From positions 671,050 through 735,049 of the forward strand of contig OZ220722.1 of assembly GCA_965116815.1 (NCBI GenBank): a stretch of 64,000 bases of DNA. Direction: 5' to 3'. Shown piece after piece: positions 1 through 26,176 of this stretch. A model generated the notes under the pieces. That model was not told the origin of the DNA and did no database searches. It saw nothing but the letters and a program-made list of their open reading frames with translations. A program made the translations under genes and the position numbers. The first letter of the stretch is position 1. Every line of letters begins with the position of its first letter. The stretch is from Candidatus Poribacteria bacterium (GTDB lineage Bacteria > Poribacteria > WGA-4E > WGA-3G).

Positions 1-1289
1 TGTAGGTACGGTATTTCAAAGAGATCGCGTCCCAACACCCCGAAGGTCCGTGCTGTGATATACGAGTTGAGCGGTGTATATAGGAATGCAAAGCCTAACA
101 GGAAACTCAATGGGAAATTCGGGACCATCCAGTGGATGAGCCAGACAAATCCACCCATACCGATGAACCACATTAATCCCATCAACCATATTGGAAAATC
201 GCCACGGTTCGGAGGTGGAGCGAAGGTACCGCGTTCACCAGCAGTTTTCTTGGTTTTCCGCATTTTAAAGATCATCGGGACCGAAGCTGCCATCCCTACG
301 ACTGCGAAACTGAACGATTTTCCCATGCTACCGCTCATCCAGAAATCCAGCCCATTGTACAAACCAACACCCCGAACATCTAATCCAGGTTTCCATTGGT
401 GAAGTATCTCAAATCGGTACAGGATTTGTGGGTTCAAGACAAATTGCGTTGCCATTGATGCAATAAATTCTGTCATCACCACCGGGAACGGCAGCACGAA
501 CCCAAAGAGCATCTGTCCGAAGTCCGTATGGAGGGCGAACACACCCGTTGGTGCGAAACCTTCGATACTCTGCGTAAAGTCTATCCACGGAATCTTCAGG
601 ATCTGAATCGGCTGGCTCATCATAACACCGGTGAGCGAAGGCACGCCGATATAGAGGAACCCCCAGATGAGTCCTGCCATTGAGCCGATAGAAAAAATTC
701 GCCACCGCCAGGTTTCCTCTTTGCCTGTCGTTTCGGCGAGCGCGGTTGCTCCTTGGGCACTAATAGGTGCCATCGGATATGGAAGTCGTTCAAGGTCCGC
801 CGTGAGCCTGAACAAGATATACTGCCCGCTGACAAATCGCAACGTACCGAGCAATTTTCCTGCAAGGTAGATACCGATTGGTAGGAGCCAGTCTGGATGC
901 AGCAGACTTCGCGTGAGTACGCCGACGGAATCACCTGCTGGCACGATCCAGTCTGGTATTTTGTCTGCGATTTCGTAGGATGCCGCCTGCGGCGTATTGA
1001 TGAAGTAGGCGTACCAGATAAAGTTCCGGTATTGCAATCCACTTCCGACCGCCGCGCCTGTTAACCCGAGGAGCATATAAAGCTCCTGGCGCCGGGCAGT
1101 CGTGAAAGACCGTCTTGCGAGCTCAGTGAATAGAATAACGGCAACCCAAGGTGCTGCACCAGCACCGGATTGGCCGGATACATAACTGAGATAGATGGAA
1201 CCCGGCATCATCAGCAAGCCAACGAAAAGTGCTCCGATAAACACCTTAACCGTTAATCCTGACTCAAAGGTACGGATACCACCTTCCAT
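1..1289 (-). CDS. Polytopic integral membrane protein of unknown function. Partial: the C-terminus runs off the window. The start is uncertain; an alternative TTG gives end 1346.
   Basis: Manual translation of the minus strand gives one uninterrupted frame from 1289 down to base 1: MEGGIRTFESGLTVKVFIGALFVGLLMMPGS...WLIHWMVPNFPLSFLLGFAFLY. It contains many hydrophobic helices. It is absent from the ORF track because no stop falls inside the window. The listed ORFs 55..402(+), 409..705(-) and 620..1042(-) are out-of-frame shadows of this gene. Confidence 0.5.
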   Translation of the reverse strand, partial: MEGGIRTFESGLTVKVFIGALFVGLLMMPGSIYLSYVSGQSGAGAAPWVAVILFTELARRSFTTARRQELYMLLGLTGAAVGSGLQYRNFIWYAYFINTPQAASYEIADKIPDWIVPAGDSVGVLTRSLLHPDWLLPIGIYLAGKLLGTLRFVSGQYILFRLTADLERLPYPMAPISAQGATALAETTGKEETWRWRIFSIGSMAGLIWGFLYIGVPSLTGVMMSQPIQILKIPWIDFTQSIEGFAPTGVFALHTDFGQMLFGFVLPFPVVMTEFIASMATQFVLNPQILYRFEILHQWKPGLDVRGVGLYNGLDFWMSGSMGKSFSFAVVGMAASVPMIFKMRKTKKTAGERGTFAPPPNRGDFPIWLMGLMWFIGMGGFVWLIHWMVPNFPLSFLLGFAFLYTPLNSYITARTFGVLGRDLFEIPYL

Positions 1290-1377
1290 GTCGTATCGCT
1301 GCGCCCAAGCTTGCCATTCATCTGCTTGTGTTACTCGTTCTCTTGCCAAATTGAGTGTTCTCCTTCCATTAGTTATC

Positions 1378-1451: not shown

Positions 1452-1640
1452 TTACTCTCCGTCTGACTCTTTGTCGCTGTCTGTGTCTCGCAATTCTTCC
1501 CAGAAATGTGCCGTAAAAATGCCAATTATCAACACAAGAGCTGATAACATCTGCCATTGCCAACGCCCTCCAAGGGCGAGAATACTAAACAGCCATAAGA
1601 AGGTGCCAATAATGATAATAAGGCTTGCTATTTTCTCCAC
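1452..1640 (-). CDS. Small hypothetical membrane protein (62 aa, two predicted TM helices).
   Basis: ORF with hydrophobic stretches IIIIGTFLWLFSILALG and LSALVLIIGIFTA. It lies immediately downstream of the giant gene on the same strand. Confidence 0.35.
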   Translation of the reverse strand: MEKIASLIIIIGTFLWLFSILALGGRWQWQMLSALVLIIGIFTAHFWEELRDTDSDKESDGE

Positions 1641-1713: not shown

Positions 1714-4700
1714 TTAATCTGCTGGCGTTGGTGCTGGTTCCATCTGTGCTGTTTCTTCCGCCGAACCATCTGTGCCTTCAGTTCTGCCGCGTTCATGGAA
1801 CTCTGATCGAACATCGACACTGAACGTCCGCCAAATCAGAAGTTGTTTCCGCAGTAGGTTGAGGAACCGTCGATTCACTCGCTTCCAAGAGGCGATCTCA
1901 CCACTCTCGCGATGTACATCCAACGTAATCTTGTAGAGGTCCTCCTCTTCACCACCCGCTGGGGATGTGACGAATTGAATAGACTGACTCACACCCAAAT
2001 CATAAGGTGCTAACCATACCATCATCCCGATTTGATAGGAATCTTCTGCTTCCTCTTGACTGAAAGCAACCTGGTCCGTGTAGAAGTCGCTGGCGGATTC
2101 GTCTGCGTGCGCCTCAAAGTAATCCCGCATAAAGACGTTCAATCCAAGCGCTTCTTCTTCAAGGACGGTGAAAGGCAGATTGAAATGCCATACGTCACCC
2201 TCAGGTTCAGGGAGTTTCCATTTACGTTCAATATCAGGGACAGCCATCCGTGAGGCTTTAATGGCTGGGTACATGGTACTCAGCAGCACGACAGCCATGA
2301 CGATAATCGTTGCAACAACGGTTGACATTGATGAGTAATTGAGCGTCAATCCGGCAAGCCAACCAAAATGCACGAGAGTTGTCGCTATCGCTTGCCCCAT
2401 GAGATAGCCTAACACTGCGCCGACAATCGCATAGACGCATGCCTCAGCAAGGAAGAGGAAGGCGATATGCACAGGCGCGAGTCCGACGGAACTGTAAATA
2501 CCAATTTCACGAACCCGTTCATAGACTGCGCCAAGCATGGTGTTGAGCACGATAAGTGCTGCGATCAAAATTGGAACGAATAGGTTGCCCATCCCACTGA
2601 AACTCGTCATCCCGATACTGCTGTAGAGGTATGTGTCTTTATCGCGCCCGACGAAGAAATCAAGTGCGATGCGGTTCATAAGTGGTGCCATGATAAGGTC
2701 CAACTTATCTATCGCGCCGAGCAATTTCGGATCGTCATCTCTCGGTTCCATATTAACAGCGACGCTTCGGAGCGTCCCGCCTTGGTTCATAACGACTTCA
2801 TAAGGGAGAATGGCAATACTGTCTGGTGTGAGATGGAGATATTTCTGTAATTCACCTTCGAGGGTCTCATCACCCGTAGCGCCGCGGCTCCGCTGCTGTT
2901 GCATCAATTGATAGTCAACAGGTGTAAGTTCCTCACCATCGTTATCAGTTAGGTCTTTGAAACCGATACCGAGCACACCAACAACGGTGAAGTCGGCACC
3001 GTAAACAGAGACGGTCGCTTTCCCCATATCGCTTTCGGTGATTTTCAGCAATTCTGCCATCCCTTTGGGCAGTACAATCGCGTAGGGCCACTCTGTGGGC
3101 CATTCATGAGCATCTGCTGGGTTGAACCATTTTCCGTATTGGAGGTACCTGTCAATACCGCTGACCCCCGGTTCTGCTTCGTTCATACCCACGAGCATGT
3201 TTGCCGCGAACGTCAACGCTTCACCCGTGAGTTGATGTGTCGGTGGAGATGAATCTGCCGGATTTGGCGTGCGTGTAAGTTGAACAAATGATTGATCCCC
3301 TGTGCCTGAAGACTGATACCACGCACGCGGGGCGACGACGTTCCGAACAGTCACAACCGATTCTTCGTCTACCTGTTCAATGAAACCCCCTTGTTCTAAA
3401 GCGGCGGTTGCTGCTGAAATGTCAATAGGTTGTTGTCCTTGCTTAATGAGCAGTTCGTTCTTACGCTCCAGAAGTCTTTCTAAGGCTGTGAATGTGATCT
3501 GCGTTTTCTGCATGTCGTTTAGCACAGAGGTAAGCACCGGTTCTTCAAGTGGACGCCAGTATTGGTCACGGATAAGCAGTCCTGTATAGCGCGGTGTCAC
3601 CTGCGGCAAACTTGTTCTATTCGGATGCATAAACGTCCGCACAGATGTAAACGAGATGACCGTAAAGGTAAGGATGACCAACGTGCAGCAGGTCAGGATC
3701 GTACGTCCTTTCCGTTTCCGCATGTTGGAAATACCCAAACTAAACGCTGCTGCACTCGCACTCAACCTGCCGACATCAGCTTTATAAACCTTGTTCCCTT
3801 CTTGGCGAATTTTTTCGAGTTGCTCCTCAAATTTCCGGACAATAATACTTATAACGATAACAGTTAAGGCAAGTACAACGAACGCAATCAAGATAATCAC
3901 AGGCGTTGTCGTAATCTGGAATGCAGGGTGAACTTGGCTTAAGAAGAAAAACACAAGTAGAAAGATGGCAAACGATCCGATAATCTGCTTGTGGATATTC
4001 GGGAAACCGAAGATGAGCCGTTCCATAAAGTAGGCAAACGGCATCAGCAAGGCAAGATAGAACATTACGCCGTTAACGACATCGTTACCTGTCTGTTTGA
4101 CATCTGGGTATGCGCGTGATTCGTAACCCCACGCGGCACGTGCGAGTTTGAGTGCCTGTTGGTAATCGTTTTGAAGCAGCTCGGTCTCCGCGCGTGCGAG
4201 GTATTCATTCGCGAATTGATGGAGTTTATCGAGGCGGTCGCTGGAGATACCGAACCGTTTATAGAGTCGCGATCGGTTCTCATCAAGCCACCACATATCA
4301 CGAACAACAACGTAGGGTGTAAGCCGGATCTGTCCATTTTCACGGACGACAAACCCTTCGCCGGTGTAAAGCGTCGGGTTCTTCATACCGCTCTTTGTCG
4401 CCTTAATGAGTAGGAGACGTTTGCCGATCTGTCCGTAAGCCATTCCGACTTTAATGCGAGTGTTCGGTTCGCTATAGACGAGGGCGATAGGTTCGGCTGC
4501 GGAGACCCCTTCCTGCTGCCACGGTTTGGACATTCCGAACTTCTCCGGCGCGCTATCGGTAAGTGCGTCGTATACTTCAAGCTCTCGCAATGTCCGTAGA
4601 TACCGTTGGTCCACCAAGTCGTAGATAGTTGTAGACACGCAGGGGAACGTAACGACACGACACCCACGTCTGCGGGTATTAATTGGAACTTTATTCGGCA

Positions 4701-7700
4701 GCAGTTTCGCGCCGTAATTCCCCAAGTCCGGCGCATAGACGATGTCCCCGGAATCCGGATCAAGAATGTATGCTTCGACCTCTTGGGCACCACCGAGACG
4801 ACGTGTCGCTCTACCTTCCATCGCTAATCCGGCAACCTCAAAGTTCCCTTTGTTATCGCCCATCACAAACAGATCGCCACGCACACCCATCATGGATTTG
4901 TGTTTTCTGCGGAGTGTCAAAATAGGATAAGGCACCGGTTTGTTCGGTAGTGCGGACTCGCGCGCATCGAATTCAACGACATCGCCGAAGAGGTTACAGT
5001 AGAAATTCCCGACGCGTGCTGCAGTGGGCATCTCTTCATCGCGGAGGGCTTGGATAAGTAATGATGCCAATGTCTGTGCTTGTTGATGGAGGTTGCCACC
5101 TTCCTGCAAATCGACGCGTTCAATTGTATCGAGCGGCGTATCCGTTAAAACACGGGCATCTTCAATAGTCGCAAAAGCGATGCCGGTTTTTCCAACAAGT
5201 GTCGCTACCTCGCTGTCAAAGGCGATCTTACCTGGGATATAGGTTTTCCAAGTTTTTCCACCACTTGCGGAGATGGCGTTAACAAAGTTCGACTTGCCAC
5301 CGAGACCCGCAATTGAAATGAGGGTTCTAATGTCCTCAATTTCGTCCTCGGAGAAGGTGTCTGGATCTTCATACCGAAGTCGGAGCATGGCATCTAACTG
5401 CTCACGCGTCCGGATATTGTTCTTCCGATTTTTCTTTGCTGTACGGACATCGTTTCGAATGAAACGCTCTACCTCTTTACGGATATAATCCATATCTTTG
5501 AGCATATCCTCAGAGGGTTCGCCTTGATTGCGCCACTGCTCAAACTGCATCTTCATGAGTCGACTCACACCGCTGAGCCCTGTGAGTTTGTTGAAGTGCG
5601 AACTCAGCAGTGTTTCAAGCGTTTTTCCTTCAAGGGCAGCTTTGTCAGAGATTCCGTTTGCGACCGTCCATTGACGAGTCATCACCGCTTGTCGGATTTG
5701 GTCGTCTGTCCACTGCCAAAGTTTACGAACACGGACACCGAAATCGGCATCTTCAGCGTAAGAGGCAAGTTTATTGCCGATACTTGCGAACTCACGCCGC
5801 AGAACAAATTCGGGCTGTTGATCGTAGAACCATCCCTTATTGAACACCCCGAACTGATTCGACTGTGAAGAGAGATCAATGCTGATATAGAGAGAGGTGT
5901 AGTAGCGGTTAAACAGATCTTGAAGGGCAATAGCCGCCTCGATCTGTCCGAGTTTCCGATTATATTCGTTGGTGTCAATGCGCAACATTTTTTCAACGCG
6001 GCTCTGAATGTTTCGGAAACGTGCGTTTCGTAGGGTGAGTAGATTATCGCGTAGGAGGATCTTGGTCTCTTCATCCAAATCGGTATCTAATGTGGGTAAC
6101 CGTTCAAAGAGATTTTCGAGTGCGATAATATCTGCGTCCGCTCGCTTTTTGACGATTTCTAATAGTGCTGTTTCGCTAATATGTGATGCGATGCGAGAGC
6201 GTAACGAAAGTGCCTGTTCGACTTCTTCTTCTAAGAGGTAATTTTCTAAAATGAGGCGTTCTTCATCCAAATATTCCCGCCCTAATGTTCCGGATGTTGC
6301 AATCAAGTGCTGGATGCGTGTTTGTTCCAATCGGGCGTTCCGCAGTGCAATTTCAAAGATACCTTGTTTGTCCTTGAGAATGTCTGCTATTAATGTAGTG
6401 GTATCAGCGGTGTCTTCAGATTCGGTTAACCGCTGGCGAAGTTGGGTGTCAATAGTATTGAGTCGTTCGATTCCGGCTTTCGACAAAAATTTACCGCCAT
6501 AAACCAGGGAATCACCGCTCAGTTTGCCCATCGGTGTTTCCTTGAGTTTCCGGATGCTTGTTTTGATTGCATCTTCAACCGATTGGCTGTCAGGTATTTG
6601 TGCGAGAATTTTTTCAAGTAATTGGACTTCTCGCTGGATTGCGACTTCTTGGGAGTCGGTAGCCTCGCGCAAAACACTGCGTGCGTCTTTCACTTTATTG
6701 AGTGAGTGTAGGTCAAGATGCCGGTCGAGTATTTTCTCGGGGGTCCACATCAAGGCAAATTTGCTCTTGTCGCTCAGCTCCCAGTTTGCAAGGGTTTTGT
6801 TAAGCATCTCAAGGTCAGGCATGAGTTCTTGCGGGAGGTCTTCCGGTACAGGAATTTGCCAGTCTGAACCCTGTTGTTCGGGGAGAAGGTATGCATGATT
6901 TGGGTGTGTAGCATATTCATTGATGGTGCCGGTCTCTATGGCGCGAATGAGTTTCTCTACCGCCCATATATCGAGGCGGGCTATCGGGAGCGCGAGCGTT
7001 TCAATCAATTCGCGCTGCGCGGATCGGCTTGTGTCAAGGGCAACAGTGCGAACCTCCGTTAATCTTTGAACGATGTCTCGGAGAAAGTGGGTCGTTTGCA
7101 GGGACTCTTTCTTTGAGCGTGCAAGATTTACCAACAAGCGACTCTTTTCTTCACCTGTGAAGCCTTGCTTCTCACGTTTCCGGTTTCTATCTGTTTGTTT
7201 CTTCTGGCGTTCTGAAAAGTCCCGTTGTTGCGCCGTGAGGTTTTCGATTTCAGAGCGCGTCTCTGATAAACCGTCGAGCGTTGTTCCGAGCGATTCCAAA
7301 TCAGCCTTTACCCTATGTATACCGTGGAAGAAATAGGCAGGGAGATCAACAAGGACGCTCCGGTCAATGGAGAGTAGGAGTCTTCTGCCCAATTCTTCAA
7401 ATTCGATGATATCCGTAGAAAGCCCGCGGCGGAGTCCATGCATTGTTGGCGTACCGGGTGAGTCTGTGGCAGACCCCACAATGTCTTGTCCGATACCTTC
7501 CATAAAAGCACGCATTCCAGCAAGCCCTTGAAAATGTCCGTCGATTGCCACAAAGAGGACGGAGTAGCCCGGGCGATATTGGGGCTGACTAAAGAGGCGA
7601 GCGAGTTCCATCAAGGTTGCGATACCACAGGTCGGATCGGCACCGGGTGCCATTGCGGGCACAACAGACATAGAGTCATAATAAGCGGTGAGGATGATGA

Positions 7701-9042
7701 GTTCGTCGCGTAGCGTCGGGTCTCCACCTTCTAAGAATCCGCGTATGTTCTGTCCAACACGGCGTTCCCACGTCATCTTACCTCTAACACGGACATTAAC
7801 CTGATTTCCTTGTGCCTGTTCCGCTTCAAGTAGGTTGGTGAGAACATCCGCATCTTCTTTGGAAAGCCAAAATCGCGGTATGTTAGCGGGGACGGTACCG
7901 AATTTGTTTTCTGCTTCTCCTCGTATAGTGGTTTCGGGTTCAATAAAAATGACAGCCGTGCCACCGAGCATCGCTGCGTTGATGTAACGGGTACTGGAAT
8001 TAAAGTCAAGAAGGACTATAGCCCCTTTCGGGATGAAGATGTGTGATTCGCTTGCGGCGACGAACTCGCCTGTTTCATCGACCTGTCCATCGTTGTTGTT
8101 ATCGATGTCATCGGTAGCGTCGCCAGGGCTTTCATCTGTCCAACCATCGGCATCGTTGTCAATGCCGTCTGTTGCCCATCCCAGAATTTCCGAGAGCAGC
8201 GGTATTTCGCCATATTCGTCAACGGTGCCGTCCTCATCGTTGTCAATACCGTCAGATGCTTTTTGCAGGTGTTCGTTGAGTATGTCGTCAGTAATACTGG
8301 CTTCGGTGATGCGATAGCGGCGGGCGAGAGCCGTGAGGGTGTCTCCATCTTGAAGTTTATACCAGAATCCACCGATGTTTGTGCCGTTGAAATCAGCGAG
8401 TTCGCCATCATCGCCGTAAAGGAGTGGACCGGACAAACCACCTGTTGGGACGAAAACTGTACTCCCTTCAACGATAGGGGTTGGCAAAAATTTGTTTCGT
8501 TCGTCTGCGAGAATAGTCGCTTCAGGGACTTGATAGCTTACGGCTATATCTTCAAGTGTTTCGTCTGCTAAAACGGTATGTTTAATGCCATCTGCTAACA
8601 GAGAGGTACGAACGAGGTTGGGCCAGAGTGGTGTAAGTTTAAAGGTGTGCAGCACAGTGCCTTCAGGGGAGAGCACTTCAACAATACTGTCTCCGTGGTC
8701 GACCGGTACAGTCACAGAGAATTCTCGGCTTTCCACGTTTTGCAAGCCGATCTCAGCGAACCGGTCAAAGATATATTTACTACCACTTGCAGCTTGCGGA
8801 TAGCCTGTTACGCGGCTATCAAGGCTTGAGAGGCGTGCAAGGTCCTTTCGGATGTTGCCAATAGAGAGGTCATCCCGAATCTGAATGGCTGCAGATTGCA
8901 TGCCAGTACTGGAAATTGCTTGTGCATAAGCAGTACCCCACGGTTGCCCAGTGAAAAGCAAAACAGAAAGGAGAAGGGTTAATACGTTTATTAGAGCACT
9001 GAAGCGTAGCGAGTATTGCTCGCGCCTACCACAAATTTTCAT
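1714..9042 (-). CDS. Giant (2442 aa) secreted/membrane multidomain protein. Order: signal peptide, LysM-like segment, Asp-rich Ca-binding-type repeats, PA/M28-family metallopeptidase domain, ~900-aa coiled-coil region, TM helices, then a C-terminal FtsX/MacB-like permease domain.
   Basis: One ORF. N-terminus LINVLTLLLSVLLFTGQPWGTAYAQA is signal-peptide-like. GDTLTALARRYRITEASI is LysM-like. Repeated DGIDNDEDGTVDE / DGIDNDADGWTDE / DDIDNNNDGQVDE motifs. The M28-like core is YYDSMSVVPAMAPGADPTCGIATLMELARLF...SVLFVAIDGHFQGLAGMRAF. The centre is long, E/K/R/L-rich and heptad-like. The FtsX signature is VYERVREIGIYSSVGLAPVHIAFLFLAEACVYAIVGAVLGYLMG, plus flanking TM helices. Confidence 0.7.
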   Translation of the reverse strand: MKICGRREQYSLRFSALINVLTLLLSVLLFTGQPWGTAYAQAISSTGMQSAAIQIRDDLSIGNIRKDLARLSSLDSRVTGYPQAASGSKYIFDRFAEIGLQNVESREFSVTVPVDHGDSIVEVLSPEGTVLHTFKLTPLWPNLVRTSLLADGIKHTVLADETLEDIAVSYQVPEATILADERNKFLPTPIVEGSTVFVPTGGLSGPLLYGDDGELADFNGTNIGGFWYKLQDGDTLTALARRYRITEASITDDILNEHLQKASDGIDNDEDGTVDEYGEIPLLSEILGWATDGIDNDADGWTDESPGDATDDIDNNNDGQVDETGEFVAASESHIFIPKGAIVLLDFNSSTRYINAAMLGGTAVIFIEPETTIRGEAENKFGTVPANIPRFWLSKEDADVLTNLLEAEQAQGNQVNVRVRGKMTWERRVGQNIRGFLEGGDPTLRDELIILTAYYDSMSVVPAMAPGADPTCGIATLMELARLFSQPQYRPGYSVLFVAIDGHFQGLAGMRAFMEGIGQDIVGSATDSPGTPTMHGLRRGLSTDIIEFEELGRRLLLSIDRSVLVDLPAYFFHGIHRVKADLESLGTTLDGLSETRSEIENLTAQQRDFSERQKKQTDRNRKREKQGFTGEEKSRLLVNLARSKKESLQTTHFLRDIVQRLTEVRTVALDTSRSAQRELIETLALPIARLDIWAVEKLIRAIETGTINEYATHPNHAYLLPEQQGSDWQIPVPEDLPQELMPDLEMLNKTLANWELSDKSKFALMWTPEKILDRHLDLHSLNKVKDARSVLREATDSQEVAIQREVQLLEKILAQIPDSQSVEDAIKTSIRKLKETPMGKLSGDSLVYGGKFLSKAGIERLNTIDTQLRQRLTESEDTADTTTLIADILKDKQGIFEIALRNARLEQTRIQHLIATSGTLGREYLDEERLILENYLLEEEVEQALSLRSRIASHISETALLEIVKKRADADIIALENLFERLPTLDTDLDEETKILLRDNLLTLRNARFRNIQSRVEKMLRIDTNEYNRKLGQIEAAIALQDLFNRYYTSLYISIDLSSQSNQFGVFNKGWFYDQQPEFVLRREFASIGNKLASYAEDADFGVRVRKLWQWTDDQIRQAVMTRQWTVANGISDKAALEGKTLETLLSSHFNKLTGLSGVSRLMKMQFEQWRNQGEPSEDMLKDMDYIRKEVERFIRNDVRTAKKNRKNNIRTREQLDAMLRLRYEDPDTFSEDEIEDIRTLISIAGLGGKSNFVNAISASGGKTWKTYIPGKIAFDSEVATLVGKTGIAFATIEDARVLTDTPLDTIERVDLQEGGNLHQQAQTLASLLIQALRDEEMPTAARVGNFYCNLFGDVVEFDARESALPNKPVPYPILTLRRKHKSMMGVRGDLFVMGDNKGNFEVAGLAMEGRATRRLGGAQEVEAYILDPDSGDIVYAPDLGNYGAKLLPNKVPINTRRRGCRVVTFPCVSTTIYDLVDQRYLRTLRELEVYDALTDSAPEKFGMSKPWQQEGVSAAEPIALVYSEPNTRIKVGMAYGQIGKRLLLIKATKSGMKNPTLYTGEGFVVRENGQIRLTPYVVVRDMWWLDENRSRLYKRFGISSDRLDKLHQFANEYLARAETELLQNDYQQALKLARAAWGYESRAYPDVKQTGNDVVNGVMFYLALLMPFAYFMERLIFGFPNIHKQIIGSFAIFLLVFFFLSQVHPAFQITTTPVIILIAFVVLALTVIVISIIVRKFEEQLEKIRQEGNKVYKADVGRLSASAAAFSLGISNMRKRKGRTILTCCTLVILTFTVISFTSVRTFMHPNRTSLPQVTPRYTGLLIRDQYWRPLEEPVLTSVLNDMQKTQITFTALERLLERKNELLIKQGQQPIDISAATAALEQGGFIEQVDEESVVTVRNVVAPRAWYQSSGTGDQSFVQLTRTPNPADSSPPTHQLTGEALTFAANMLVGMNEAEPGVSGIDRYLQYGKWFNPADAHEWPTEWPYAIVLPKGMAELLKITESDMGKATVSVYGADFTVVGVLGIGFKDLTDNDGEELTPVDYQLMQQQRSRGATGDETLEGELQKYLHLTPDSIAILPYEVVMNQGGTLRSVAVNMEPRDDDPKLLGAIDKLDLIMAPLMNRIALDFFVGRDKDTYLYSSIGMTSFSGMGNLFVPILIAALIVLNTMLGAVYERVREIGIYSSVGLAPVHIAFLFLAEACVYAIVGAVLGYLMGQAIATTLVHFGWLAGLTLNYSSMSTVVATIIVMAVVLLSTMYPAIKASRMAVPDIERKWKLPEPEGDVWHFNLPFTVLEEEALGLNVFMRDYFEAHADESASDFYTDQVAFSQEEAEDSYQIGMMVWLAPYDLGVSQSIQFVTSPAGGEEEDLYKITLDVHRESGEIASWKRVNRRFLNLLRKQLLIWRTFSVDVRSEFHERGRTEGTDGSAEETAQMEPAPTPAD

Positions 9043-9699
9043 TCGATTTGATTTACGGACTGGAAACCCCTGAACACATTCAGGAGACGAAAGTCCGTCC
9101 TCCTTATGTATTTTTTTTAAAAAAGGATTAAACCTTTTTTAACTTCGCACGCCTAATGTCTTGGAGAGCAGCGATTTTTCAATACCAAACATCTCTTAGA
9201 AACTCGACGACTTTTGTTTACTCGAACAACGCCTCAAACGAGCTGCGCCTGAAGTCTATTCAGATACGAGCGTATCCGTAGAGGGGCTTCCCATCTGCAG
9301 TGGCGGATGAGTAAAGTTACGAGTTTCTGAGACCGCGAAAGTAGAACAGTCGAGCAGGAAGGTCTTAAGAGGTTCCTCTGACTTGAGTCAGCGGGTAGTT
9401 GGTGTTGTTAAAGTCTCCCACCTTTTTCTGGTTTTCAGATTTCTCTCCGTTGTTTTTCGGAGCCTTTTGGCGTAATTTTAGGAAGCGTAATATGTATATT
9501 CTATACTATTATTACAATTTTTGTCAAATTAAAATTTGCATTTAAGGCTTTTTTAGATTAAAATATATTTCGCGCCTTGCCTCTCATTGAAGCACCATTC
9601 TCTTAAAACCATACTTTGCTGCAACACCGCAGCGATGCTAAAATTCAAAAACTCAGCGGCGATATAACACCCCCGTGCTGTCTGATAAAGGAGCCAAAC

Positions 9700-10098
9700 G
9701 TGGCAAAAGAATCAAAGGACTCAAGTACTGACAAGGTCATCTCACGTATAAAATTACGTCGTCGTGAATTGGAATTGACACAAACAGAACTCGCAAAAGT
9801 GGCGAATCTAACACCTGCTGCAATCTCGCAATTTGAATCGGGAGCCAGAAAACCCTCGTTTAAGACGCTTTCAAGCCTTTCTGATGCCTTGAAGGTTACG
9901 ACCGATTACCTCCTTGGAAAAACTGAAAAAAGTTACGGCGATCTCTTAGCCGATCCGAAGATGGGTGCTATGTTCAGAGGCATGATGGAATTTACGGAGA
10001 AGGATAAGGAAACACTCTACGAGTTCTACGAATTTCTCAAAACGAAAGCAGAAGCACAGAAGACAGAGACAGAAGAACTCTCCTCAAACGAAGAGTAG
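9700..10098 (+). CDS. XRE-family helix-turn-helix transcriptional regulator (Cro/C1-type HTH).
   Basis: HTH motif LTQTELAKVANLTPAAISQFESGARKPSFKTLSSLSDAL. The likely start is GTG at 9700, preceded by AAAGGAG. The ORF-track start at 9616 is probably too far upstream. Confidence 0.7.
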   Translation: MAKESKDSSTDKVISRIKLRRRELELTQTELAKVANLTPAAISQFESGARKPSFKTLSSLSDALKVTTDYLLGKTEKSYGDLLADPKMGAMFRGMMEFTEKDKETLYEFYEFLKTKAEAQKTETEELSSNEE

Positions 10099-12138: not shown

Positions 12139-12948
12139 TTAACCGTAGGCACCGTGATTGAGGAAACCGAGTAAGCGACGTAAACGGGGACTTGCGTCTT
12201 TGTAGACAGAATCAGGCATATTATAGTTCATAAACGGATAATATTTATGCCCGACGAGGCGGCGCCCGTATGTCACTTGTGTGATATATCGGATGCGCTG
12301 GGTCTGATTAGGACCCCCGCGATGCCATACCTGATTGTTGAACATGATGACACTTCCCGCGTTTCCGAGGTTATACTGGACTTTATCCTCCCACTCTGTT
12401 CCTTCTATCGGGTTCGGGGGAGACGCACCAAAAAGATGGGAGCCCGGAACGACTTCTGTGCCACCGTGTTCAATCTCGGTGACATCGGTGAGATAGTAGT
12501 TCGCTGTAAAAAGCAGCACCGGCAGCCGCACGTTCTTTGGCGGTTCACCCTCCGTTACGATGTAGTGCGGTGCGTCGTCCTGATGCCAAGACGTAATCCC
12601 GCCGCCCGGAAACGTTTGGAACGAGTTGTTGTGAATAACATGGCAGTTGTCGGCGACAAGTGCTTCAGCGAAGGAGACAATCGGTTCGAGATCAAATAGG
12701 CGGCGATTCGCTTCGCTGTGTTCAAACATCCGATGGCTCAAGTGCATGCGCCCGCCGGGGCTTCCGCCATTTAAGCCGTTCGGATCGTTTTTGAGTGCCC
12801 ACTCTAAATCCTGTCGCAGTTGCGCGCAGTGATCAGGGGTCAAGACATTTTGCAAAAACAGACAGCCTCGCTGGTGGAAGGTCTCCACCCATTCCTGAAT
12901 TTGTTCATCACTGACAACCTGATCTGCTAAGTAGGTTGTTTGTCCCAT
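12139..12948 (-). CDS. Phytanoyl-CoA dioxygenase (PhyH) family Fe(II)/2-oxoglutarate oxygenase.
   Basis: GGITSWHQDDAPHY (HxD iron-binding motif) with overall PhyH-like layout. Confidence 0.7.
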   Translation of the reverse strand: MGQTTYLADQVVSDEQIQEWVETFHQRGCLFLQNVLTPDHCAQLRQDLEWALKNDPNGLNGGSPGGRMHLSHRMFEHSEANRRLFDLEPIVSFAEALVADNCHVIHNNSFQTFPGGGITSWHQDDAPHYIVTEGEPPKNVRLPVLLFTANYYLTDVTEIEHGGTEVVPGSHLFGASPPNPIEGTEWEDKVQYNLGNAGSVIMFNNQVWHRGGPNQTQRIRYITQVTYGRRLVGHKYYPFMNYNMPDSVYKDASPRLRRLLGFLNHGAYG

Positions 12949-13503: not shown

Positions 13504-16500
13504 CTACGAATGTGTCAAAAGCTCGAACTGCACATCCGGGGTGGTGTGCAGATATTTTATCAGTATAGCGTCCTTATCTTCAATATAAAGCCATCCGGAT
13601 CCAACATCTTCAAGTGACTGCACAGCCGGAACCTCAATTTCTGCGTATTTATTCGATCCGTTGACGGGTTCAGAATCTTCAGGGGACGTGTCCGTATCGG
13701 TAGGAGTATCATCTGGAGGCGATGTGAGTTCATATCGCGCCCGGAGTGCTTGTGGCGCACGTCCGCAACCAACAATAAGTGAGTAGCTTGTTTCATTGTT
13801 AGCGTAACTGAGCTGCCAGTTCAACTGATCGGTGTTGGTTAAAGTAAGTTTCTCCACGCTTGCACCGGAACTGACGTGTATCTCACCCGCGATAAGGGTC
13901 TTTATACCCGGGTCGAGTCCTCGGAGTGCGTAAACATTCACCATGATATCTTCGGGGTTCAGATGCGGTCCTTTACCTTCGGTGCAGAAACCGTAAAATC
14001 CATCGGGATAGGTGCCTTTGAGGTCACCCTCTTCCCACTGCTGATACATCGCACTTACTGTAATACCTTCAGCAATCTGGAGCCATTTTTCATCTTCGGT
14101 GTGCTGGTCCAGTCGTTGTAAGTAGTAAGCGAGAACCAACCCATTCCATTGAACAGGGACACCGAACCAAGGGTGCGTATGGAAGCTCGTCCCGAAAACA
14201 GGGATTGAGGCGAACTGCATACCGGGTCGGTCAGACAAGTGCCAATGGTAGAGGAACGGCAGGGCTGTCTCTGCCCAATACGTTGCGCGCTTGAGATGTT
14301 CTTTTTCGTTTGTCAGTTCATAAGCTTCAACGTAGGCACCGATAGCGTGAGCGGCTGCGAGAACGTCCGGTTGATACATTGGGCATTCCCACATTTGCGC
14401 GCCGCGCGGCACGGAGAATTGCTGAATGAATTTAAGTGCCTTCAAGCCTGCCGCACGCGAGGTTTTATTTCCAGTAATTCGTGCGTGTTTGAGGAGTAAA
14501 TGTGCCGACTCTGCACAGGTGCCGAGCACGGCTTCGCCCGGTTCTCCAAGGGAAGTGGTTCGTTCGCTTGTTGGATGCCACCGCCAGCTTCCATCGGACG
14601 CTTGTGTAGCGAGGCGTTGCTGTGTCTCCTCTTCCATGTAAGTTAGTGCCGCATCAATATTGCTGATATAGAAAGGGAATTCCCATCTCAAAATGTGACA
14701 CGAACCACGTGCTGCCAAGCCTCCTGCTCCAGATTCGGCTACGGTATTTTTAGCGATTTCTTGCACCCGTTCCTTTACCTGCTCATCTTTTGTCGCGAGG
14801 TAGTCGTACCAAAGCAAGGTGCCGAAACCTGGTTCATTTTGAGCCGCCCAGTCTACACAGTGACGAGATTTTCGAGTGTTTTCATCCCATGTGGTGTGCA
14901 TAAATCCGTGCCGTGAGAGCAAAACTTGTTCTTCGTCACTACGCGGTGGTGGCAATGGCTTGGGCGTACCGTAAGCATCGTTCCAATGGGCTACGGCATC
15001 TAAAATAGAGGCGTTTCCATCCACAATGATTTCGCTTTTGATGGACAGCGGACGCGATGTCATCAACGGATACGGAATGGAAGCCTCCGCCTGATTTTCT
15101 TGGACCCACGTTGGGACGGTCGGTAGGAATACACCGAGGACGTGATTTTTCTGGGACTGATACCAATTCGGAGAGGCGAATATCGTAGAGAGCATCTGAT
15201 TCTCACCATCCCAAGTATCCAGGGGGTTCCAAACAATGCCGACTAACGATTTCTGCATTTCTACCGCCATGACCGGCACTGTAATCTTATAGGGGTGTGG
15301 CACAAGTCGGTTGTCGAGTGGAGGTGATGCATCACGCGGACTTGAGGAGCGTTCGTCGTTCTCCAGGAATTCAAGTCCAGGGAAGAGTGCAGCCGTTTTC
15401 TTCTCACGGTTACGCCCTTGCCCCGCATAAAGCATCGGACCTCGGAAACTGAGGAGTTCTCTGTTTCCGTCTGTTTGCAACTTATATTCTGTCTTCACTC
15501 GCGTCGCACGTTCAGCAAGCGTCCACTGCATCTCATAAGCCCATTCCACGCCATCGGCATCTGTGTCCGAACCACTTAAACGGATGATAGACTCTCCCTT
15601 GTTGTTTCCTGAGAGTTGATGGATCGTAGGCGTGAGTTGCAAAGTTTGGCGATTTTGCGATGCGTCTAAGTAGGTTACCTCAGAGAGGAACGGACTGGTT
15701 GCCACCTGTTGATAGTTCCTACCCTTTGCAACAAAAAGCACATAGTACGCAAAGCTGCCAGCCGCCTTTTTGTCGAAGTTGTTTTGGTTTTCAGTCTCTG
15801 ATGTTGCTTCAGTACCACGGACAAAAATGATGCGGAGATTTTTGTTCCCTAACACCACGCTACCATCTTGTGTGTAGGTGTGCAGTTCTTTCACGGCTTT
15901 CGTCGCGAGTTTGGGCGGGGCAGGACGAATCGCAACGCTGCCTTGAGCTGTTTGACGTTCTTCTCCGGCTGACGTTTGGCATTTGAGCGAAACGGAAATA
16001 GGAATTACAGTGGGATTTGAAAGACGACGCGCTACCCAAAAAATGGAGGTTTCTTCATTCGGTTCAATTCCTTTGACCGTTTGTCTCGGACGTCCACGCC
16101 GTAGTTTCACACCGTTGATAGAGATCCAAGCAGTATCTGCCTTACCGAGTGGCGCACTGCCGACATTCCGAAGCGTGCATTGCACTTCAAAATCTTCACC
16201 CGCGGCGACAACAGCGGCTGTCGCACCTACGCTCACAATCTCCAATTTCGGCTGTGCTGCGTAAATGGATAGCTTGATAGGGTGTTTTTCCGATTCGTGT
16301 GATTCAAGCAGAATATCCCTTAGCGCGGAAACCGATGTTGACGTGGATTGACTGAACTCCTGCAGCTGCGTCGCATCATCGCTGAAGTGTAGGATGGCAA
16401 GACCGCATCGAACTTCGGGTTCCTTATCTCTTTTCCCTTTCCGGAGCGATGTCTGTTTAAGTTTGCGTAACTGTGGTTTACCCCACAACGCCCACGCGTA

Positions 16501-17499
16501 GTTACTGTTGCCTTCTACGTTACACTCCGTCAAAAACGAGACAACGATCTCTTTACCAGCGTAGTGTGTCAGATCTATGCTTTTTTCTCTCCAGTGACAC
16601 TCCGTTGATACAGATTCAAAGCATCTTTCTGGTGTGGCTTCCAAATCTGTGTTCGGAAGATCGACAATTTCAATGGAAAATTTTACACCCCCGGGTGTTC
16701 GCGCTGCATCATCAAATACGACACCATCCCGCAAGCCGATCGAAAAGTGTAAGAAGAGTTTCTCTTTGTCATCGGCATCGGGAAGTGAAAGTGTGTAGTC
16801 AATTCTCGCGGTTTCTGTTGAGGTTGGATGTTCAAAAATGGCAGGTTTTACCACACCACCTGAGGAATCTGTACCGTTGGCAGATGCTTGTTCTGTTCCA
16901 GAAACAGTGCCCTGTTCAAACATCTCCACGAAGTCATAAATTTCCTCAATAATCCCAAGCTCCAGTGGTGGAGGTTCAGGTTCCGCTTCAGTCTTATCGC
17001 TTGGGGTTGTTTCGTCTGTTTCTTGCGTTTCAGTTTCTGGAACTTCGCTGTCGGCAACCTGTGGACTTTCCGCCACGGCATCCTCGGTTTCCGTCTCAGG
17101 CGGGGCAATCTCCTCCTCATCTTCGGAAACCGAATCGGTACCTTCTAATGATTGGGATGCCTCTTGACCTTCAGCGGAATCAAGGTTGGTAACCCCCTCA
17201 GGAACATTGTCTTCGCCTGTTTCAGGACTGTCCGCATGCATTTCGGTGCTCTCCTCTGTAGTGACAGGCGGAGCCTCATCCGTCGGTGCTTCCTCTGATG
17301 GAGCATCGTTTTCTTCGCTTTCCGAGTGTTCGGAAACCGGAGCATCTACGGGGTCAACATCACTTACCGGATTATCATCCGTTGCGAGTTCCAATTCCGT
17401 TTGAGGTTCGTCATCATGCTGTGCATCGTCGGGTTGATCGTTTTCTTCCTCTGTTTGCCCGATGCAGGCGGCTAAAAATTGTTGAAAACCGATGGACAT
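13504..17499 (-). CDS. Large (1331 aa) multidomain protein of unknown function. Order: strongly acidic low-complexity N-terminal ~200 aa, CARDB/Ig-like beta-sandwich segment, then a C-terminal alpha-helical toroid-like domain. No obvious signal peptide.
   Basis: The N-terminus is rich in D/E/P/T. The segment LEIVSVGATAAVVAAGEDFEVQCTLRNVGSAPLG is CARDB-like. Its start overlaps the stop of the upstream GH172-like gene (17499/17500), suggesting an operon. Confidence 0.65.
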   Translation of the reverse strand: MSIGFQQFLAACIGQTEEENDQPDDAQHDDEPQTELELATDDNPVSDVDPVDAPVSEHSESEENDAPSEEAPTDEAPPVTTEESTEMHADSPETGEDNVPEGVTNLDSAEGQEASQSLEGTDSVSEDEEEIAPPETETEDAVAESPQVADSEVPETETQETDETTPSDKTEAEPEPPPLELGIIEEIYDFVEMFEQGTVSGTEQASANGTDSSGGVVKPAIFEHPTSTETARIDYTLSLPDADDKEKLFLHFSIGLRDGVVFDDAARTPGGVKFSIEIVDLPNTDLEATPERCFESVSTECHWREKSIDLTHYAGKEIVVSFLTECNVEGNSNYAWALWGKPQLRKLKQTSLRKGKRDKEPEVRCGLAILHFSDDATQLQEFSQSTSTSVSALRDILLESHESEKHPIKLSIYAAQPKLEIVSVGATAAVVAAGEDFEVQCTLRNVGSAPLGKADTAWISINGVKLRRGRPRQTVKGIEPNEETSIFWVARRLSNPTVIPISVSLKCQTSAGEERQTAQGSVAIRPAPPKLATKAVKELHTYTQDGSVVLGNKNLRIIFVRGTEATSETENQNNFDKKAAGSFAYYVLFVAKGRNYQQVATSPFLSEVTYLDASQNRQTLQLTPTIHQLSGNNKGESIIRLSGSDTDADGVEWAYEMQWTLAERATRVKTEYKLQTDGNRELLSFRGPMLYAGQGRNREKKTAALFPGLEFLENDERSSSPRDASPPLDNRLVPHPYKITVPVMAVEMQKSLVGIVWNPLDTWDGENQMLSTIFASPNWYQSQKNHVLGVFLPTVPTWVQENQAEASIPYPLMTSRPLSIKSEIIVDGNASILDAVAHWNDAYGTPKPLPPPRSDEEQVLLSRHGFMHTTWDENTRKSRHCVDWAAQNEPGFGTLLWYDYLATKDEQVKERVQEIAKNTVAESGAGGLAARGSCHILRWEFPFYISNIDAALTYMEEETQQRLATQASDGSWRWHPTSERTTSLGEPGEAVLGTCAESAHLLLKHARITGNKTSRAAGLKALKFIQQFSVPRGAQMWECPMYQPDVLAAAHAIGAYVEAYELTNEKEHLKRATYWAETALPFLYHWHLSDRPGMQFASIPVFGTSFHTHPWFGVPVQWNGLVLAYYLQRLDQHTEDEKWLQIAEGITVSAMYQQWEEGDLKGTYPDGFYGFCTEGKGPHLNPEDIMVNVYALRGLDPGIKTLIAGEIHVSSGASVEKLTLTNTDQLNWQLSYANNETSYSLIVGCGRAPQALRARYELTSPPDDTPTDTDTSPEDSEPVNGSNKYAEIEVPAVQSLEDVGSGWLYIEDKDAILIKYLHTTPDVQFELLTHS

Positions 17500-21988: not shown

Positions 21989-22227
21989 ATTATATTTCGA
22001 TTTATGCACCATTTCTGCTCCAAAATTGCGTCTATAAATAAATCGTAAAGCGAGGATTTAAATTTAATCCTCTATCAGACTTACATTGTGGTAAACAAGT
22101 TTTTTAAGATTACGTTAAGTGTTGTATCATTCTTGAACCTAAAGAATATCCCTAAGATTGACGTAATCCCCCAAACATGTTATTATCTTTCAAGACTAAC
22201 GGATTTGAAAAAAAGGAGGACTTCACA

Positions 22228-23508: not shown

Positions 23509-23536
23509 GTGCCCTAAAACGCAAGGAGGTGTTGAC

Positions 23537-24823: not shown

Positions 24824-24898
24824 GGCCTAATACTGTAGAAAAAGGCGACCTTGTCTTGTAAGCGCGTATAGTGAGCTCAAACCAGAGGGGATAGAAAA

Positions 24899-26158: not shown

Positions 26159-26176
26159 ACCCTAAAGGAGAAAACC

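What the first reader, a model, noticed from the sequence alone, without database searches (positions are those of the whole stretch)
1714..9042. 2442-aa single protein combining a secreted M28 peptidase, a ~900-aa coiled coil and an FtsX/MacB-type permease
FtsX-like permeases normally pair with a cytoplasmic ABC ATPase and have a modest periplasmic domain. FtsX itself couples to periplasmic peptidoglycan hydrolase activators. Here one gene encodes a signal peptide, a LysM-like segment, Ca-binding-type D-rich repeats and an M28 metallopeptidase fold. It then encodes a very long coiled coil, and finally the TM helices and the RxxEIG...permease signature. No ABC ATPase gene is adjacent. This may be a self-contained mechanotransmission machine that tethers an extracytoplasmic peptidase to a membrane permease through a long stalk.
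Basis: partly seen in the sequence, partly recalled or inferred. Interest (0 to 1): 0.7.

Follow-up and report, generated by a model that had tools for sequence, protein, structure and literature searches.

The report
Giant ABC permease with peptidase-like head
A real 2442-residue membrane protein of a Poribacteria (sponge-symbiont) genome joins a peptidase-shaped but probably non-catalytic outer domain to a MacB/FtsX-type permease. It is an enlarged member of a widespread, unstudied family whose operon carries its own ATPase, and the window cuts that ATPase off.

Summary
The 7.3-kb ORF is real. More than 120 full-length Poribacteria homologues exist, some on 4-6 Mb contigs, and dN/dS is 0.04. 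Signal peptide, two LysM units, three acidic repeats, a PA+M28 fold and an FtsX/MacB module are all confirmed.

Three points of the finding fail.
1. The M28 site is remodelled across the family. H97 is Tyr, catalytic E151 is an invariant His, E152 is Phe and H256 is Asp. A canonical di-zinc peptidase is unlikely.
2. The "900-aa coiled coil" is two lineage-specific helical insertions (about 515 and 165 aa) inside the M28 fold. It is not a stalk to the membrane. That link is a beta-sandwich domain plus three extra TM helices.
3. "No ATPase" is a window-edge artefact. In 72 of 82 related Poribacteria loci the gene order is giant, 62-aa ORF, OPT-like permease, about 345-aa protein, PqqD-like protein, LolD/MacB-type ATPase. 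The window ends inside the OPT-like gene.

The same cluster, with an extra minimal FtsX, recurs in other phyla. The family has at least 1328 representatives at E<=1e-30, typically about 1500 aa, and I found no literature on it. Best reading: the large subunit of an ATP-driven type VII ABC mechanotransmission complex. The substrate is unknown and possibly peptide-like.

The parts
1714..9042 (-). Whole ORF, 2442 aa: large subunit of the predicted type VII ABC complex
8923..9042 (-). aa 1-40: Sec-type signal peptide (basic n-region, hydrophobic aa 10-34, AYA|Q)
   Evidence: hydropathy; sequence read directly; poorly conserved, as signal peptides are
8623..8922 (-). aa 41-140: N-terminal piece of the M28-like fold
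   Evidence: family profile against 2ek8/YwaD from profile position 18-30; model pLDDT above 90
7753..8622 (-). aa 141-430: PA/apical-type domain carrying a Poribacteria-specific insert of about 165-185 aa
8449..8586 (-). aa 153-198: LysM unit 1 (beta-alpha-alpha-beta)
   Evidence: Pfam LysM, two stretches; AF2 secondary structure
8233..8367 (-). aa 226-270: LysM unit 2
   Evidence: Pfam LysM best stretch aa 228-251; lower pLDDT
8074..8253 (-). aa 264-323: three acidic repeats DGIDNDxDGxxDE (calcium-binding type, inferred)
   Evidence: Only a non-significant resemblance to the MopE metal-binding motif. pLDDT 42-60
7408..7752 (-). aa 431-545: M28-like core piece 1 with Y454 (in place of H97), D456, D469, H503 (in place of E151) and F504 (in place of E152)
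5908..7407 (-). aa 546-1045: helical insertion 1 (about 515 aa; helices of 51, 75, 37 and 47 residues plus shorter ones), Poribacteria-specific
   Evidence: dN/dS 0.11
5788..5907 (-). aa 1046-1085: M28-like core piece 2 with D1056 (equivalent of D179)
5293..5787 (-). aa 1086-1250: helical insertion 2, low model confidence
   Evidence: pLDDT 35-60; dN/dS 0.03
5008..5292 (-). aa 1251-1345: M28-like core piece 3 with D1301 (in place of H256), R1297 and D1305
4333..5007 (-). aa 1346-1570: all-beta periplasmic domain (transthyretin/CarboxypepD_reg-like sandwiches), 95% conserved within Poribacteria
   Evidence: no Pfam family
3796..4320 (-). aa 1575-1749: periplasmic helical hairpin and three extra TM helices (1655-73, 1686-1706, 1712-36)
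   Evidence: conserved across the family
2245..3768 (-). aa 1759-2266: FtsX/MacB module. It comprises an amphipathic elbow helix, TM1, a periplasmic Porter/Sabre-type domain (1808-2142), and TM2-4 with the coupling helix YERVREIG
1768..2193 (-). aa 2284-2425: conserved cytoplasmic alpha/beta tail (b-a-b-b-b-b-a-a) with motifs WLAPxDLGVSQ and SWxRxNRxFLxxLRKQxLIWRT
1452..1640 (-). 62-aa two-TM ORF, the second gene of the operon (seen in Poribacteria only)
1..1349 (-). First 449 codons of the roughly 662-aa OPT-like polytopic membrane protein, cut by the window edge
   Evidence: tblastn 91.5% identity to the L002 orthologue. OPT is the only Pfam family hit in this protein family (5 of 41 members, best 7e-8)
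9616..10098 (+). Divergent XRE-type HTH_3 regulator gene, kept next to the giant gene in L001, L002 and L083
9498..9527 (-). Promoter-like TTGACA-18-TAGAAT, about 455 nt upstream of the ATG
   Evidence: consensus match only

Best explanation
The ORF encodes the large membrane subunit of a type VII (MacB/LolC/FtsX-class) ABC mechanotransmission complex. It is not a stand-alone device.

Shown:
- After a signal peptide comes a periplasmic head with the PA+M28 fold. Its metal and catalytic site is replaced family-wide by a different but strongly conserved set of residues.
- Next come a beta-sandwich spacer, a helical hairpin, three extra TM helices and a complete FtsX module. That module has an elbow helix, TM1, a Porter/Sabre-type domain and TM2-4 with an invariant coupling helix.
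- A conserved cytoplasmic tail follows.
- The gene heads a conserved operon: 62-aa membrane ORF, OPT-like permease (the window holds its first 449 codons), a roughly 345-aa protein ending in Cys-His, a PqqD-like protein and a LolD/MacB-type ATPase.

Inferred:
- Two ATPase subunits dock on the coupling helices. ATP binding and hydrolysis move the stalk helices and thereby the periplasmic head.
- The head acts as a binding or clamping module rather than a protease.
- The complex works together with the OPT-like membrane protein, and a cytosolic PqqD-like peptide-binding protein feeds or regulates it.
- The cargo is therefore most likely peptide-like. Its identity and direction of movement are unknown.
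- The Poribacteria-specific additions (two LysM units, three acidic repeats, about 680 aa of helices) attach and extend the head at the peptidoglycan layer.
For: FtsX module:
- Pfam 47.5 bits.
- LolC and MacB PDB sequence hits at 1e-8.
- The coupling-helix residues E..R...EI..S..GL.P are invariant in 83 sequences.

ATPase:
- Best NCBIfam matches are LolD (232 bits), MacB NBD, YbbA, DevA and FtsE.
- Walker A, Q-loop, LSGGQ, Walker B and H-loop are intact (read directly).
- It is present downstream on the same strand in 72 of 82 Poribacteria loci. Six of the ten exceptions end before the expected position.
- It is 68-70% identical across phyla.

Neighbour census outside Poribacteria:
- An OPT-like gene is next in 63 of 73 loci.
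- The full set, including the ATPase, is present in 27 of 43 loci with at least 6 kb of flank.
- The alternative polytopic partner DUF6785/6784 is fused to the C-terminus of 2088-aa family members.

M28 head:
- Site columns over 86 members: Y454 in place of H97 (Y76/F6/H4); H503 in place of E151 (86/86); F504 in place of E152 (F67/H14); D1301 in place of H256 (D78).
- The best single-sequence M28 hit in the PDB is the pseudo-peptidase nicalin.

Other:
- Topology is consistent: signal peptide out, 3+4 TM helices, C-terminus in.
- All segments are under purifying selection.
Against: - The ATPase of this particular genome is not in the window. It is inferred from synteny, and the nearest loci are only about 83-84% identical in DNA.
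- Poribacteria lack the minimal roughly 210-aa FtsX gene that accompanies the cluster in other phyla, so the composition of the dimer is unclear.
- In 16 of 43 well-flanked loci no LolD-like ATPase was found among the downstream genes. One of them, L160, has the ATPase and minimal FtsX upstream on the opposite strand.
- No substrate evidence exists. The "peptide" idea rests only on the usual roles of M28, OPT and PqqD domains.
- The remodelled M28 site is highly conserved (invariant D456, S459, H503, D1305). A non-canonical catalytic activity is therefore not excluded.
- The bridging Asp may be retained as D/E469, depending on where a one-residue gap is placed.
- A strong PADLOC match to 'CARF_m8--CARF_LolE_TM' (163 bits; 217 bits for a typical member) is unexplained.
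Confidence: 0.65

Rival explanations
1. A cis version of FtsEX-EnvC/PcsB. The non-catalytic peptidase-like head, with its helical inserts and LysM units, binds peptidoglycan. Driven by the ATPase, it switches a separate cell-wall hydrolase on or off.
For: Two LysM units. Long helices up to 75 residues inside a degenerate peptidase domain. This recalls EnvC, which has a coiled coil plus an inactive LytM domain regulated by FtsEX (my own knowledge; FtsEX as a regulator of wall hydrolases: PMC5985334, PMC6355983). A class A PBP gene lies two genes upstream in L001.
Against: LysM units and the helical inserts are confined to the Poribacteria branch. Typical members have 41-aa and 37-aa loops there. 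The conserved partners (OPT-like, PqqD-like, p344) have no known wall-hydrolase role, and no amidase or LytM gene is conserved nearby. Scores to the FtsX equivalog models are far below cut-off: 13.9 against 255 and 21 against 250.
Confidence: 0.15
2. The M28-like head is an active hydrolase with a non-canonical site. ATP-driven movement of the permease gates its activity: an ATP-controlled periplasmic peptidase.
For: The altered site is not decayed but strictly conserved: H503 86/86, D456 86/86, D1056 79/86, D1301 78/83, R1297 82/83. The best-scoring AAP entry in the PDB search is 2anp, which carries His at position 151. From memory, it was described as a functional E151H mutant.
Against: H97, E152 and H256 are replaced by Tyr, Phe and Asp in most members. 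The closest single-sequence PDB relative is the inactive nicalin. Other fold neighbours include the non-catalytic TfR1 and GAA1.
Confidence: 0.1
3. One reading: a self-contained, ATPase-independent machine in which the FtsX module only anchors or passively couples the head to the membrane.
For: No ATPase lies within the 62 kb of the window upstream of the gene. The only ABC ATPase there is MalK-type, 43 kb away. Some family loci (L083, L085, L087, L088) show no ATPase within 10 kb.
Against: The operon continues beyond the window edge. A LolD-class ATPase is conserved there in relatives. The NBD-docking coupling helix is invariant, even in 'solo' members.
Confidence: 0.05
4. A signal-controlled membrane effector. 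The cytoplasmic tail would be a ligand sensor, as catalogued for the 'CARF_m8 LolE_TM' proteins, possibly linked to defence.
For: PADLOC PDLC01991 scores 163 bits here and 217 bits for P0328, covering the extra TM helices, the FtsX module and the tail.
Confidence: 0.04
5. An assembly or annotation artefact that fuses separate genes.
For: None beyond the unusual length.
Against: Full-length homologues exist in more than 120 clusters from independent assemblies, including closed-size contigs. dN/dS is 0.02-0.11 in every segment. The roughly 1500-aa family architecture is conserved across phyla.
Confidence: 0.01

Closest known systems
FtsEX with EnvC / PcsB / RipC (type VII ABC regulators of wall hydrolases)
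   Same: An FtsX-type permease is driven by a separate cytoplasmic ATPase. The periplasmic output goes through a helical, catalytically inactive peptidase-like partner. The Poribacteria version also has peptidoglycan-binding LysM units.
   Different: Here the peptidase-like module has the M28/PA fold, not LytM/CHAP, and is fused in cis N-terminal to the permease. There are 7 TM helices instead of 4. Scores to the FtsX equivalog models are far below cut-off. The partners are OPT-like, PqqD-like and p344 proteins, not amidases.
LolCDE / MacAB-TolC / YtrEF / HrtBA / YbbAP (other type VII ABC systems)
   Different: An extra ectodomain of about 1600 aa and three extra TM helices precede the FtsX module, and a conserved cytoplasmic tail of about 175 aa follows it. 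No adaptor (MacA) or outer-membrane partner gene is present. The OPT-like partner has no counterpart in the type VII systems I am aware of.
PA-domain M28 proteins: bacterial aminopeptidases (2ek8, YwaD, 3iib, PaAP), GCPII, and the non-catalytic transferrin receptor, nicalin, nicastrin and GAA1
   Same: The same PA+M28 fold. As in TfR, nicalin and GAA1, the zinc ligands are not kept, and the domain is attached to a membrane complex.
   Different: Bacterial and periplasmic, and fused to an ABC permease. The replaced site is itself strongly conserved (invariant His at the E151 position). Two large helical insertions split the fold in Poribacteria.
ADOP family duplicated orphan permeases (TIGR03434)
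   Same: Large FtsX-family permeases that often lack an adjacent ATPase gene.
   Different: The ADOP model scores 29 bits against a cut-off of 622. There is no duplication of the FtsX module here, and in this family an ATPase is usually in the operon.
PADLOC 'CARF_m8--CARF_LolE_TM' candidate proteins
   Same: Sequence homology across the extra TM helices, the FtsX module and apparently the cytoplasmic tail (163-217 bits).
   Different: Profile positions 1-77 and 686-810 are unmatched. The M28 head is absent from that model, and no defence context is seen here.

Membership tests
Type VII ABC transporter permease (MacB/LolC/FtsX superfamily; features as in PMC5985334) | FtsX C-terminal TM domain (Pfam PF02687) above the gathering score | tested here: met
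   47.5 bits against 25.5, aa 2156-2266
Type VII ABC transporter permease | Four-TM unit with a large periplasmic domain between TM1 and TM2, preceded by an amphipathic helix | tested here: met
   Elbow helix 1759-76, TM1 1778-98, periplasmic domain 1808-2142, TM2-4 2151-2266. Three additional TM helices lie upstream
Type VII ABC transporter permease | Porter (and Sabre) fold of the periplasmic domain | tested here: met
Type VII ABC transporter permease | Major coupling helix between TM2 and TM3 | tested here: met
   YERVREIGIYSSVGL; E, R, E, I, S, G, L and P are invariant in 83 family members
Type VII ABC transporter permease | Cognate LolD/MacB/FtsE-class ATPase | tested here: inconclusive
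   Not inside the window. It is present five genes downstream in 72 of 82 related Poribacteria loci and in 27 of 43 well-flanked loci elsewhere. The window ends inside gene 3 of that operon
FtsX proper (cell-division FtsEX) | Equivalog-level similarity to FtsX and an adjacent ftsE | tested here: not met
   TIGR00439 13.9 against 255; NF038346 21 against 250. The neighbouring genes are different
M28 metallopeptidase (active, co-catalytic zinc) | M28 alpha/beta fold | tested here: met
M28 metallopeptidase (active, co-catalytic zinc) | Five metal ligands His-Asp-Glu-Asp-His (AAP H97, D117, E152, D179, H256) | tested here: not met
   Y454, D469/P470 (ambiguous), F504, D1056 (kept), D1301. The same holds across 86 members
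M28 metallopeptidase (active, co-catalytic zinc) | Catalytic general-base Glu (AAP E151) | tested here: not met
   Invariant His503, 86 of 86
LysM domain | Pfam LysM above cut-off and a beta-alpha-alpha-beta fold | tested here: met
   27.4-33.9 bits against 20.9, two stretches, each covering only part of the profile. b-a-a-b at aa 153-198 in the model. Peptidoglycan binding was not tested
ADOP duplicated permease (TIGR03434) | Score above the family cut-off; duplicated FtsX module | tested here: not met
   29.4 against 622.3; a single FtsX module
OPT oligopeptide transporter superfamily (for the downstream partner gene, window 1..1349) | Match to Pfam OPT | tested here: inconclusive
   The Poribacteria protein itself gives no hit. 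Five of 41 family members hit OPT, best 7e-8, and it is the only family matched. One NCBI record is named 'peptide transporter'

The most novel reading that the evidence does not exclude
The family defines an undescribed envelope machine. In it a LolD-type ATPase drives a 7-TM FtsX subunit whose remodelled M28/PA head captures or hands over a peptide-like cargo. That cargo crosses the membrane through a dedicated OPT-like (or DUF6785) partner, with a PqqD-like chaperone and a Cys/His protein on the cytoplasmic side. This would be the first coupling of a type VII ABC mechanotransmitter to a secondary-transporter-like channel. Poribacteria would have re-tooled it with LysM and helical inserts to act at the cell wall.
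Probability: 0.3. Interest if true: 0.75.

Novelty: new variant of a known kind. Interest (0 to 1): 0.55.

Why it matters
Type VII ABC systems (FtsEX, LolCDE, MacAB) do mechanical work outside the membrane. Several are essential and are drug targets. This family adds an architecture not covered by the described subfamilies. It has a fused peptidase-like head with a conserved but non-canonical site, three extra TM helices and a conserved cytoplasmic tail. It also has fixed partners that include an OPT-like membrane protein and a PqqD-like protein.

The family is large, with at least 1328 representatives at 50% clustering and E<=1e-30. It spans Poribacteria, Planctomycetota, Armatimonadota, Latescibacterota, Zixibacteria and Omnitrophota. 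Databases label it only "M28 family peptidase" or "FtsX-like permease", which probably misleads. For Poribacteria, the LysM and helical elaboration points to a lineage-specific role at the cell wall of a sponge symbiont.

Tried and rejected
The first run of model 2 failed and was repeated.
- The genome-contig scan returned only Poribacteria, because hits are ranked on the window sequence. A second alignment headed by a non-Poribacteria member was therefore used on metagenomes.
- An exact-sequence look-up of the window protein found nothing. No fetched locus is the same genome; the best is about 84% nucleotide identity.
- Homology of the OPT-like partner to DUF6785 gave 4.5% probability with shallow profiles. 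With deeper ones it gave 63.6% and E 7e-5. This is suggestive, not established.
- PDB profile searches for the p344 family and the OPT-like family found nothing.
- Pfam finds nothing for the beta-sandwich domain or the inserts, and only an insignificant DUF6242 hit (E 0.033) for the tail.
- Literature searches found no description of the family. The terms tried were FtsX+M28, DUF6785/6784, PqqD+FtsX+OPT and CARF+LolE. The CARF classification paper could not be opened.
- The crude heptad scan is home-made and only indicative.
- Rejected: the MalK-type ATPase at 52022..53125 as partner. It has OB_MalK/TOBE domains and lies 43 kb away.
- Rejected: the window's own DUF6785/6784 gene (39768..41711) as part of this operon. 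It is 30 kb away among unrelated genes.
Full report
**1. The observation**

The minus strand of 1714..9042 carries one uninterrupted ATG-to-stop ORF of 2442 codons. Pfam finds four things:
- FtsX above its cut-off (aa 2156-2266, 47.5 bits).
- The first 78 of 193 positions of Peptidase_M28 (aa 432-515, 31.9 bits).
- LysM (27-34 bits, two stretches).
- MacB_PCD and PA below their cut-offs.

The N-terminus looks like a Sec signal peptide: a hydrophobic stretch at aa 10-34 and AYA|Q. Three acidic repeats DGIDNDxDGxxDE sit at aa 264-323.

The gene is not an assembly artefact. More than 120 clusters of full-length proteins (2420-2476 aa, 70-92% identical) come from independent Candidatus Poribacteria assemblies, several on 4-6 Mb contigs. 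Against a 92% homologue, dN/dS is 0.04 overall and 0.02-0.11 in every segment.

**2. Anatomy**

Two AlphaFold models built with 83-86-sequence alignments cover aa 36-1235 (pLDDT 78) and aa 1243-2442 (pLDDT 79.6).

The fold is split. In typical family members the loop between the strand carrying H503 and the strand carrying D1056 is 37 residues. In Poribacteria it is about 552. The WPN..DFN segment of the PA region is 41 residues in typical members and 205-225 in Poribacteria.

The LysM units and acidic repeats form a third, roughly 170-aa insertion in the PA region. The first insertion is confidently helical, with helices of 51, 75, 37 and 47 residues and many shorter ones. Only three short stretches pass a crude heptad test. 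It is not one long coiled coil.

After the M28 fold the order is as follows:
- A helical hairpin.
- Three TM helices.
- A complete FtsX module: elbow helix, TM1, a 335-aa periplasmic domain and TM2-4.
- A conserved cytoplasmic alpha/beta tail at 2284-2425.

**3. The peptidase site**

Alignment to the Aeromonas aminopeptidase, and the same columns in 86 family members, give the following.

| AAP residue | Here | Across the family |
|---|---|---|
| H97 | Y454 | Y76 / F6 / H4 |
| D117 | D469 or P470, depending on a one-residue gap | position 469 is E/D in 69 of 86 |
| E151 (catalytic) | H503 | His 86/86 |
| E152 | F504 | F67 / H14 |
| D179 | D1056 | kept in 79/86 |
| H256 | D1301 | D78 |

A canonical di-zinc aminopeptidase site is thus absent. 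The replacement residues are themselves nearly invariant, which argues for a conserved binding or non-canonical site rather than decay. The closest M28 relative by single-sequence search of the PDB is nicalin, a known inactive homologue.

**4. The missing ATPase is a window-edge artefact**

The ORF listing does not report ORFs that run off the window. The 62-aa ORF at 1452..1640 and the stretch 1349..3 on the minus strand are orthologues of the two genes that follow the giant gene in related loci. The second is 91.5% identical over its first 449 residues.

In locus L002 (92% homologue, same upstream synteny) and L001 (70% homologue) the same-strand order is as follows:
- giant gene;
- 62-63-aa ORF;
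- 662-663-aa polytopic protein;
- 309-344-aa protein;
- PqqD-like protein;
- 270-aa ABC ATPase.

The ATPase's best NCBIfam matches are LolD, the MacB NBD, YbbA, DevA and FtsE, which is exactly the type VII class. Its motifs are intact.

Across 82 Poribacteria loci the ATPase was found in 72. Six of the other ten end before the expected position. The only ABC ATPase inside the window is a MalK-type sugar-transport ATPase 43 kb away. No fetched locus is the same genome; the best is about 84% DNA identity. For this genome the ATPase therefore remains an inference from synteny.

**5. The family beyond Poribacteria**

An exhaustive search with aa 1243-2442 found 7222 representatives at E<=1e-3 and 1328 at E<=1e-30. 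The best 150 have a median length of about 1545 aa. Most of them match the query on both sides of its poorly conserved stretch, from about query residue 1-600 and about 660-1180.

Sources name these proteins only "M28 family peptidase", "FtsX-like permease family protein", "ABC-type antimicrobial peptide transport system permease" or "hypothetical". The lineages named are Omnitrophica, Zixibacteria, Latescibacteria, Planctomycetota and Chthonomonadales.

A census of 88 non-Poribacteria loci used HMMs of the partner genes:
- An OPT-like gene lies immediately downstream in 63 of 73 loci with at least 1 kb of flank.
- The full set (OPT-like, p344, PqqD-like, a minimal roughly 210-aa FtsX, ATPase) is present in 27 of 43 loci with at least 6 kb of flank.
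- Other loci have a DUF6785/DUF6784 protein adjacent, or fused to the C-terminus of 2088-aa members.
- Others have a PhyH gene directly upstream and no partners.
- The sample is biased towards relatives of the query used.

The partner ATPases are 68-70% identical to the Poribacteria one. The p344 and PqqD-like proteins are clear orthologues. The polytopic partner is OPT-like: OPT is the only Pfam family hit in that protein family, in 5 of 41 members with best E 7e-8. It may be remotely related to DUF6785 (hhalign 63.6%, E 7e-5). Poribacteria lack the minimal FtsX gene in the cluster and have the 62-aa ORF instead.

**6. Mechanism**

Established knowledge of type VII ABC transporters (PMC5985334) is this. 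The NBD dimer closes on ATP and pushes the major coupling helix between TM2 and TM3. The four-helix bundle and stalk zip up, and the periplasmic domains move. The work is done outside the membrane.

Every element needed for this is present and invariant here, and a matching ATPase is in the operon. My best explanation is therefore that the giant protein is the large subunit of such a complex.

The steps beyond that are inference:
- The M28/PA head is a binding or clamping module.
- The OPT-like protein supplies a membrane path.
- The PqqD-like protein is a cytosolic peptide-binding adaptor (a domain known as a peptide-recognition element in RiPP pathways; my own knowledge).

Three peptide-associated module types in one cluster suggest a peptide-like cargo. 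Nothing here shows its identity or direction of movement. The Poribacteria-specific LysM units, acidic repeats and helices are most simply read as attachment to, and reach across, the peptidoglycan layer.

**7. Rivals**

- A cis analogue of FtsEX-EnvC. This fits the Poribacteria additions but not the family-wide partners.
- An ATP-gated non-canonical hydrolase. This is kept alive by the strict conservation of the altered site.
- An ATPase-independent device. This is contradicted by synteny and by the invariant coupling helix.
- A ligand-sensing effector. It is suggested by an unexplained strong PADLOC match to 'CARF_m8--CARF_LolE_TM': 163 bits here and 217 bits for a typical member, covering the extra TM helices, the FtsX module and apparently the tail. 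The tail's predicted fold is not Rossmann-like. No defence genes are nearby. I could not read the source paper.

**8. Comparison and novelty**

The protein meets the tested defining features of a type VII ABC permease. It fails those of FtsX proper, of ADOP permeases and of an active M28 peptidase (see the membership table).

I found no paper on the fusion or on DUF6785/6784 in the held library. I rate it a new variant of a known kind. It is an uncharacterised, widespread subfamily of type VII ABC systems with a novel ectodomain and partner set, and the window holds a lineage-specifically enlarged member.

Interest is moderate. The headline claim of an ATPase-less machine falls. The conserved multi-phylum gene cluster behind it is a sound target for experiment.

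Noticed in passing
window 22177..31138 (+), also 35393..37262 (+): A tandem array of at least six paralogous 420-480-aa ORFs with CarboxypepD_reg plus C-type lectin domains. One of them (27724..29775) is fused to an N-terminal ECF sigma factor (regions 2 and 4). Two further CarboxypepD_reg ORFs follow.
   Followed up: no
window 39768..41711 (-): A stand-alone 647-aa DUF6785+DUF6784 protein (E 1.9e-152) lies next to a Peptidase_M50B-like gene. The same module is fused to, or adjacent to, M28-FtsX family members in other phyla.
   Followed up: partly
window 12139..12948 (-); L001 3089-3907; L085 7742-8629; L087 9089-9994; L088 9013-9966: PhyH-type dioxygenase genes recur close to the M28-FtsX gene. 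They lie directly upstream on the same strand in L087 and L088, and about 1.4 kb upstream with a CreD gene between in L085. This could be a real link or reflect the abundance of PhyH genes in these genomes.
   Followed up: no
window 1714..9042 (-), aa 1986-2411: A strong match to PADLOC model PDLC01991 'CARF_m8--CARF_LolE_TM': 163 bits here and 217 bits for the typical member P0328. Its meaning is unexplained and the source description was not available.
   Followed up: partly
L084 18965-19648; L086 17991-18623; 37 metagenome loci: Non-Poribacteria clusters carry a minimal roughly 210-aa four-TM FtsX gene with almost no periplasmic loop, between the PqqD-like and ATPase genes. Poribacteria clusters lack it and have a 62-aa two-TM ORF after the giant gene instead.
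   Followed up: partly
L002 19961-20995 and orthologues (p344 family): The roughly 300-345-aa partner protein ends in an invariant Cys-His and has another invariant Cys about 30 residues earlier. Most non-Poribacteria members also have a CxxC, which suggests a metal site. There is no Pfam or PDB relative.
   Followed up: partly
window 13504..17499 (-): A 1331-aa ORF without any Pfam match lies directly downstream of a DUF2961/GH172 gene. Both are conserved in L002.
   Followed up: no
window 9043..9527 (-): A roughly 455-nt leader lies between the promoter-like site and the start codon. The only strong AAGGAGG is about 55-60 nt upstream of the ATG, too far for a normal ribosome-binding site.
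   Followed up: no
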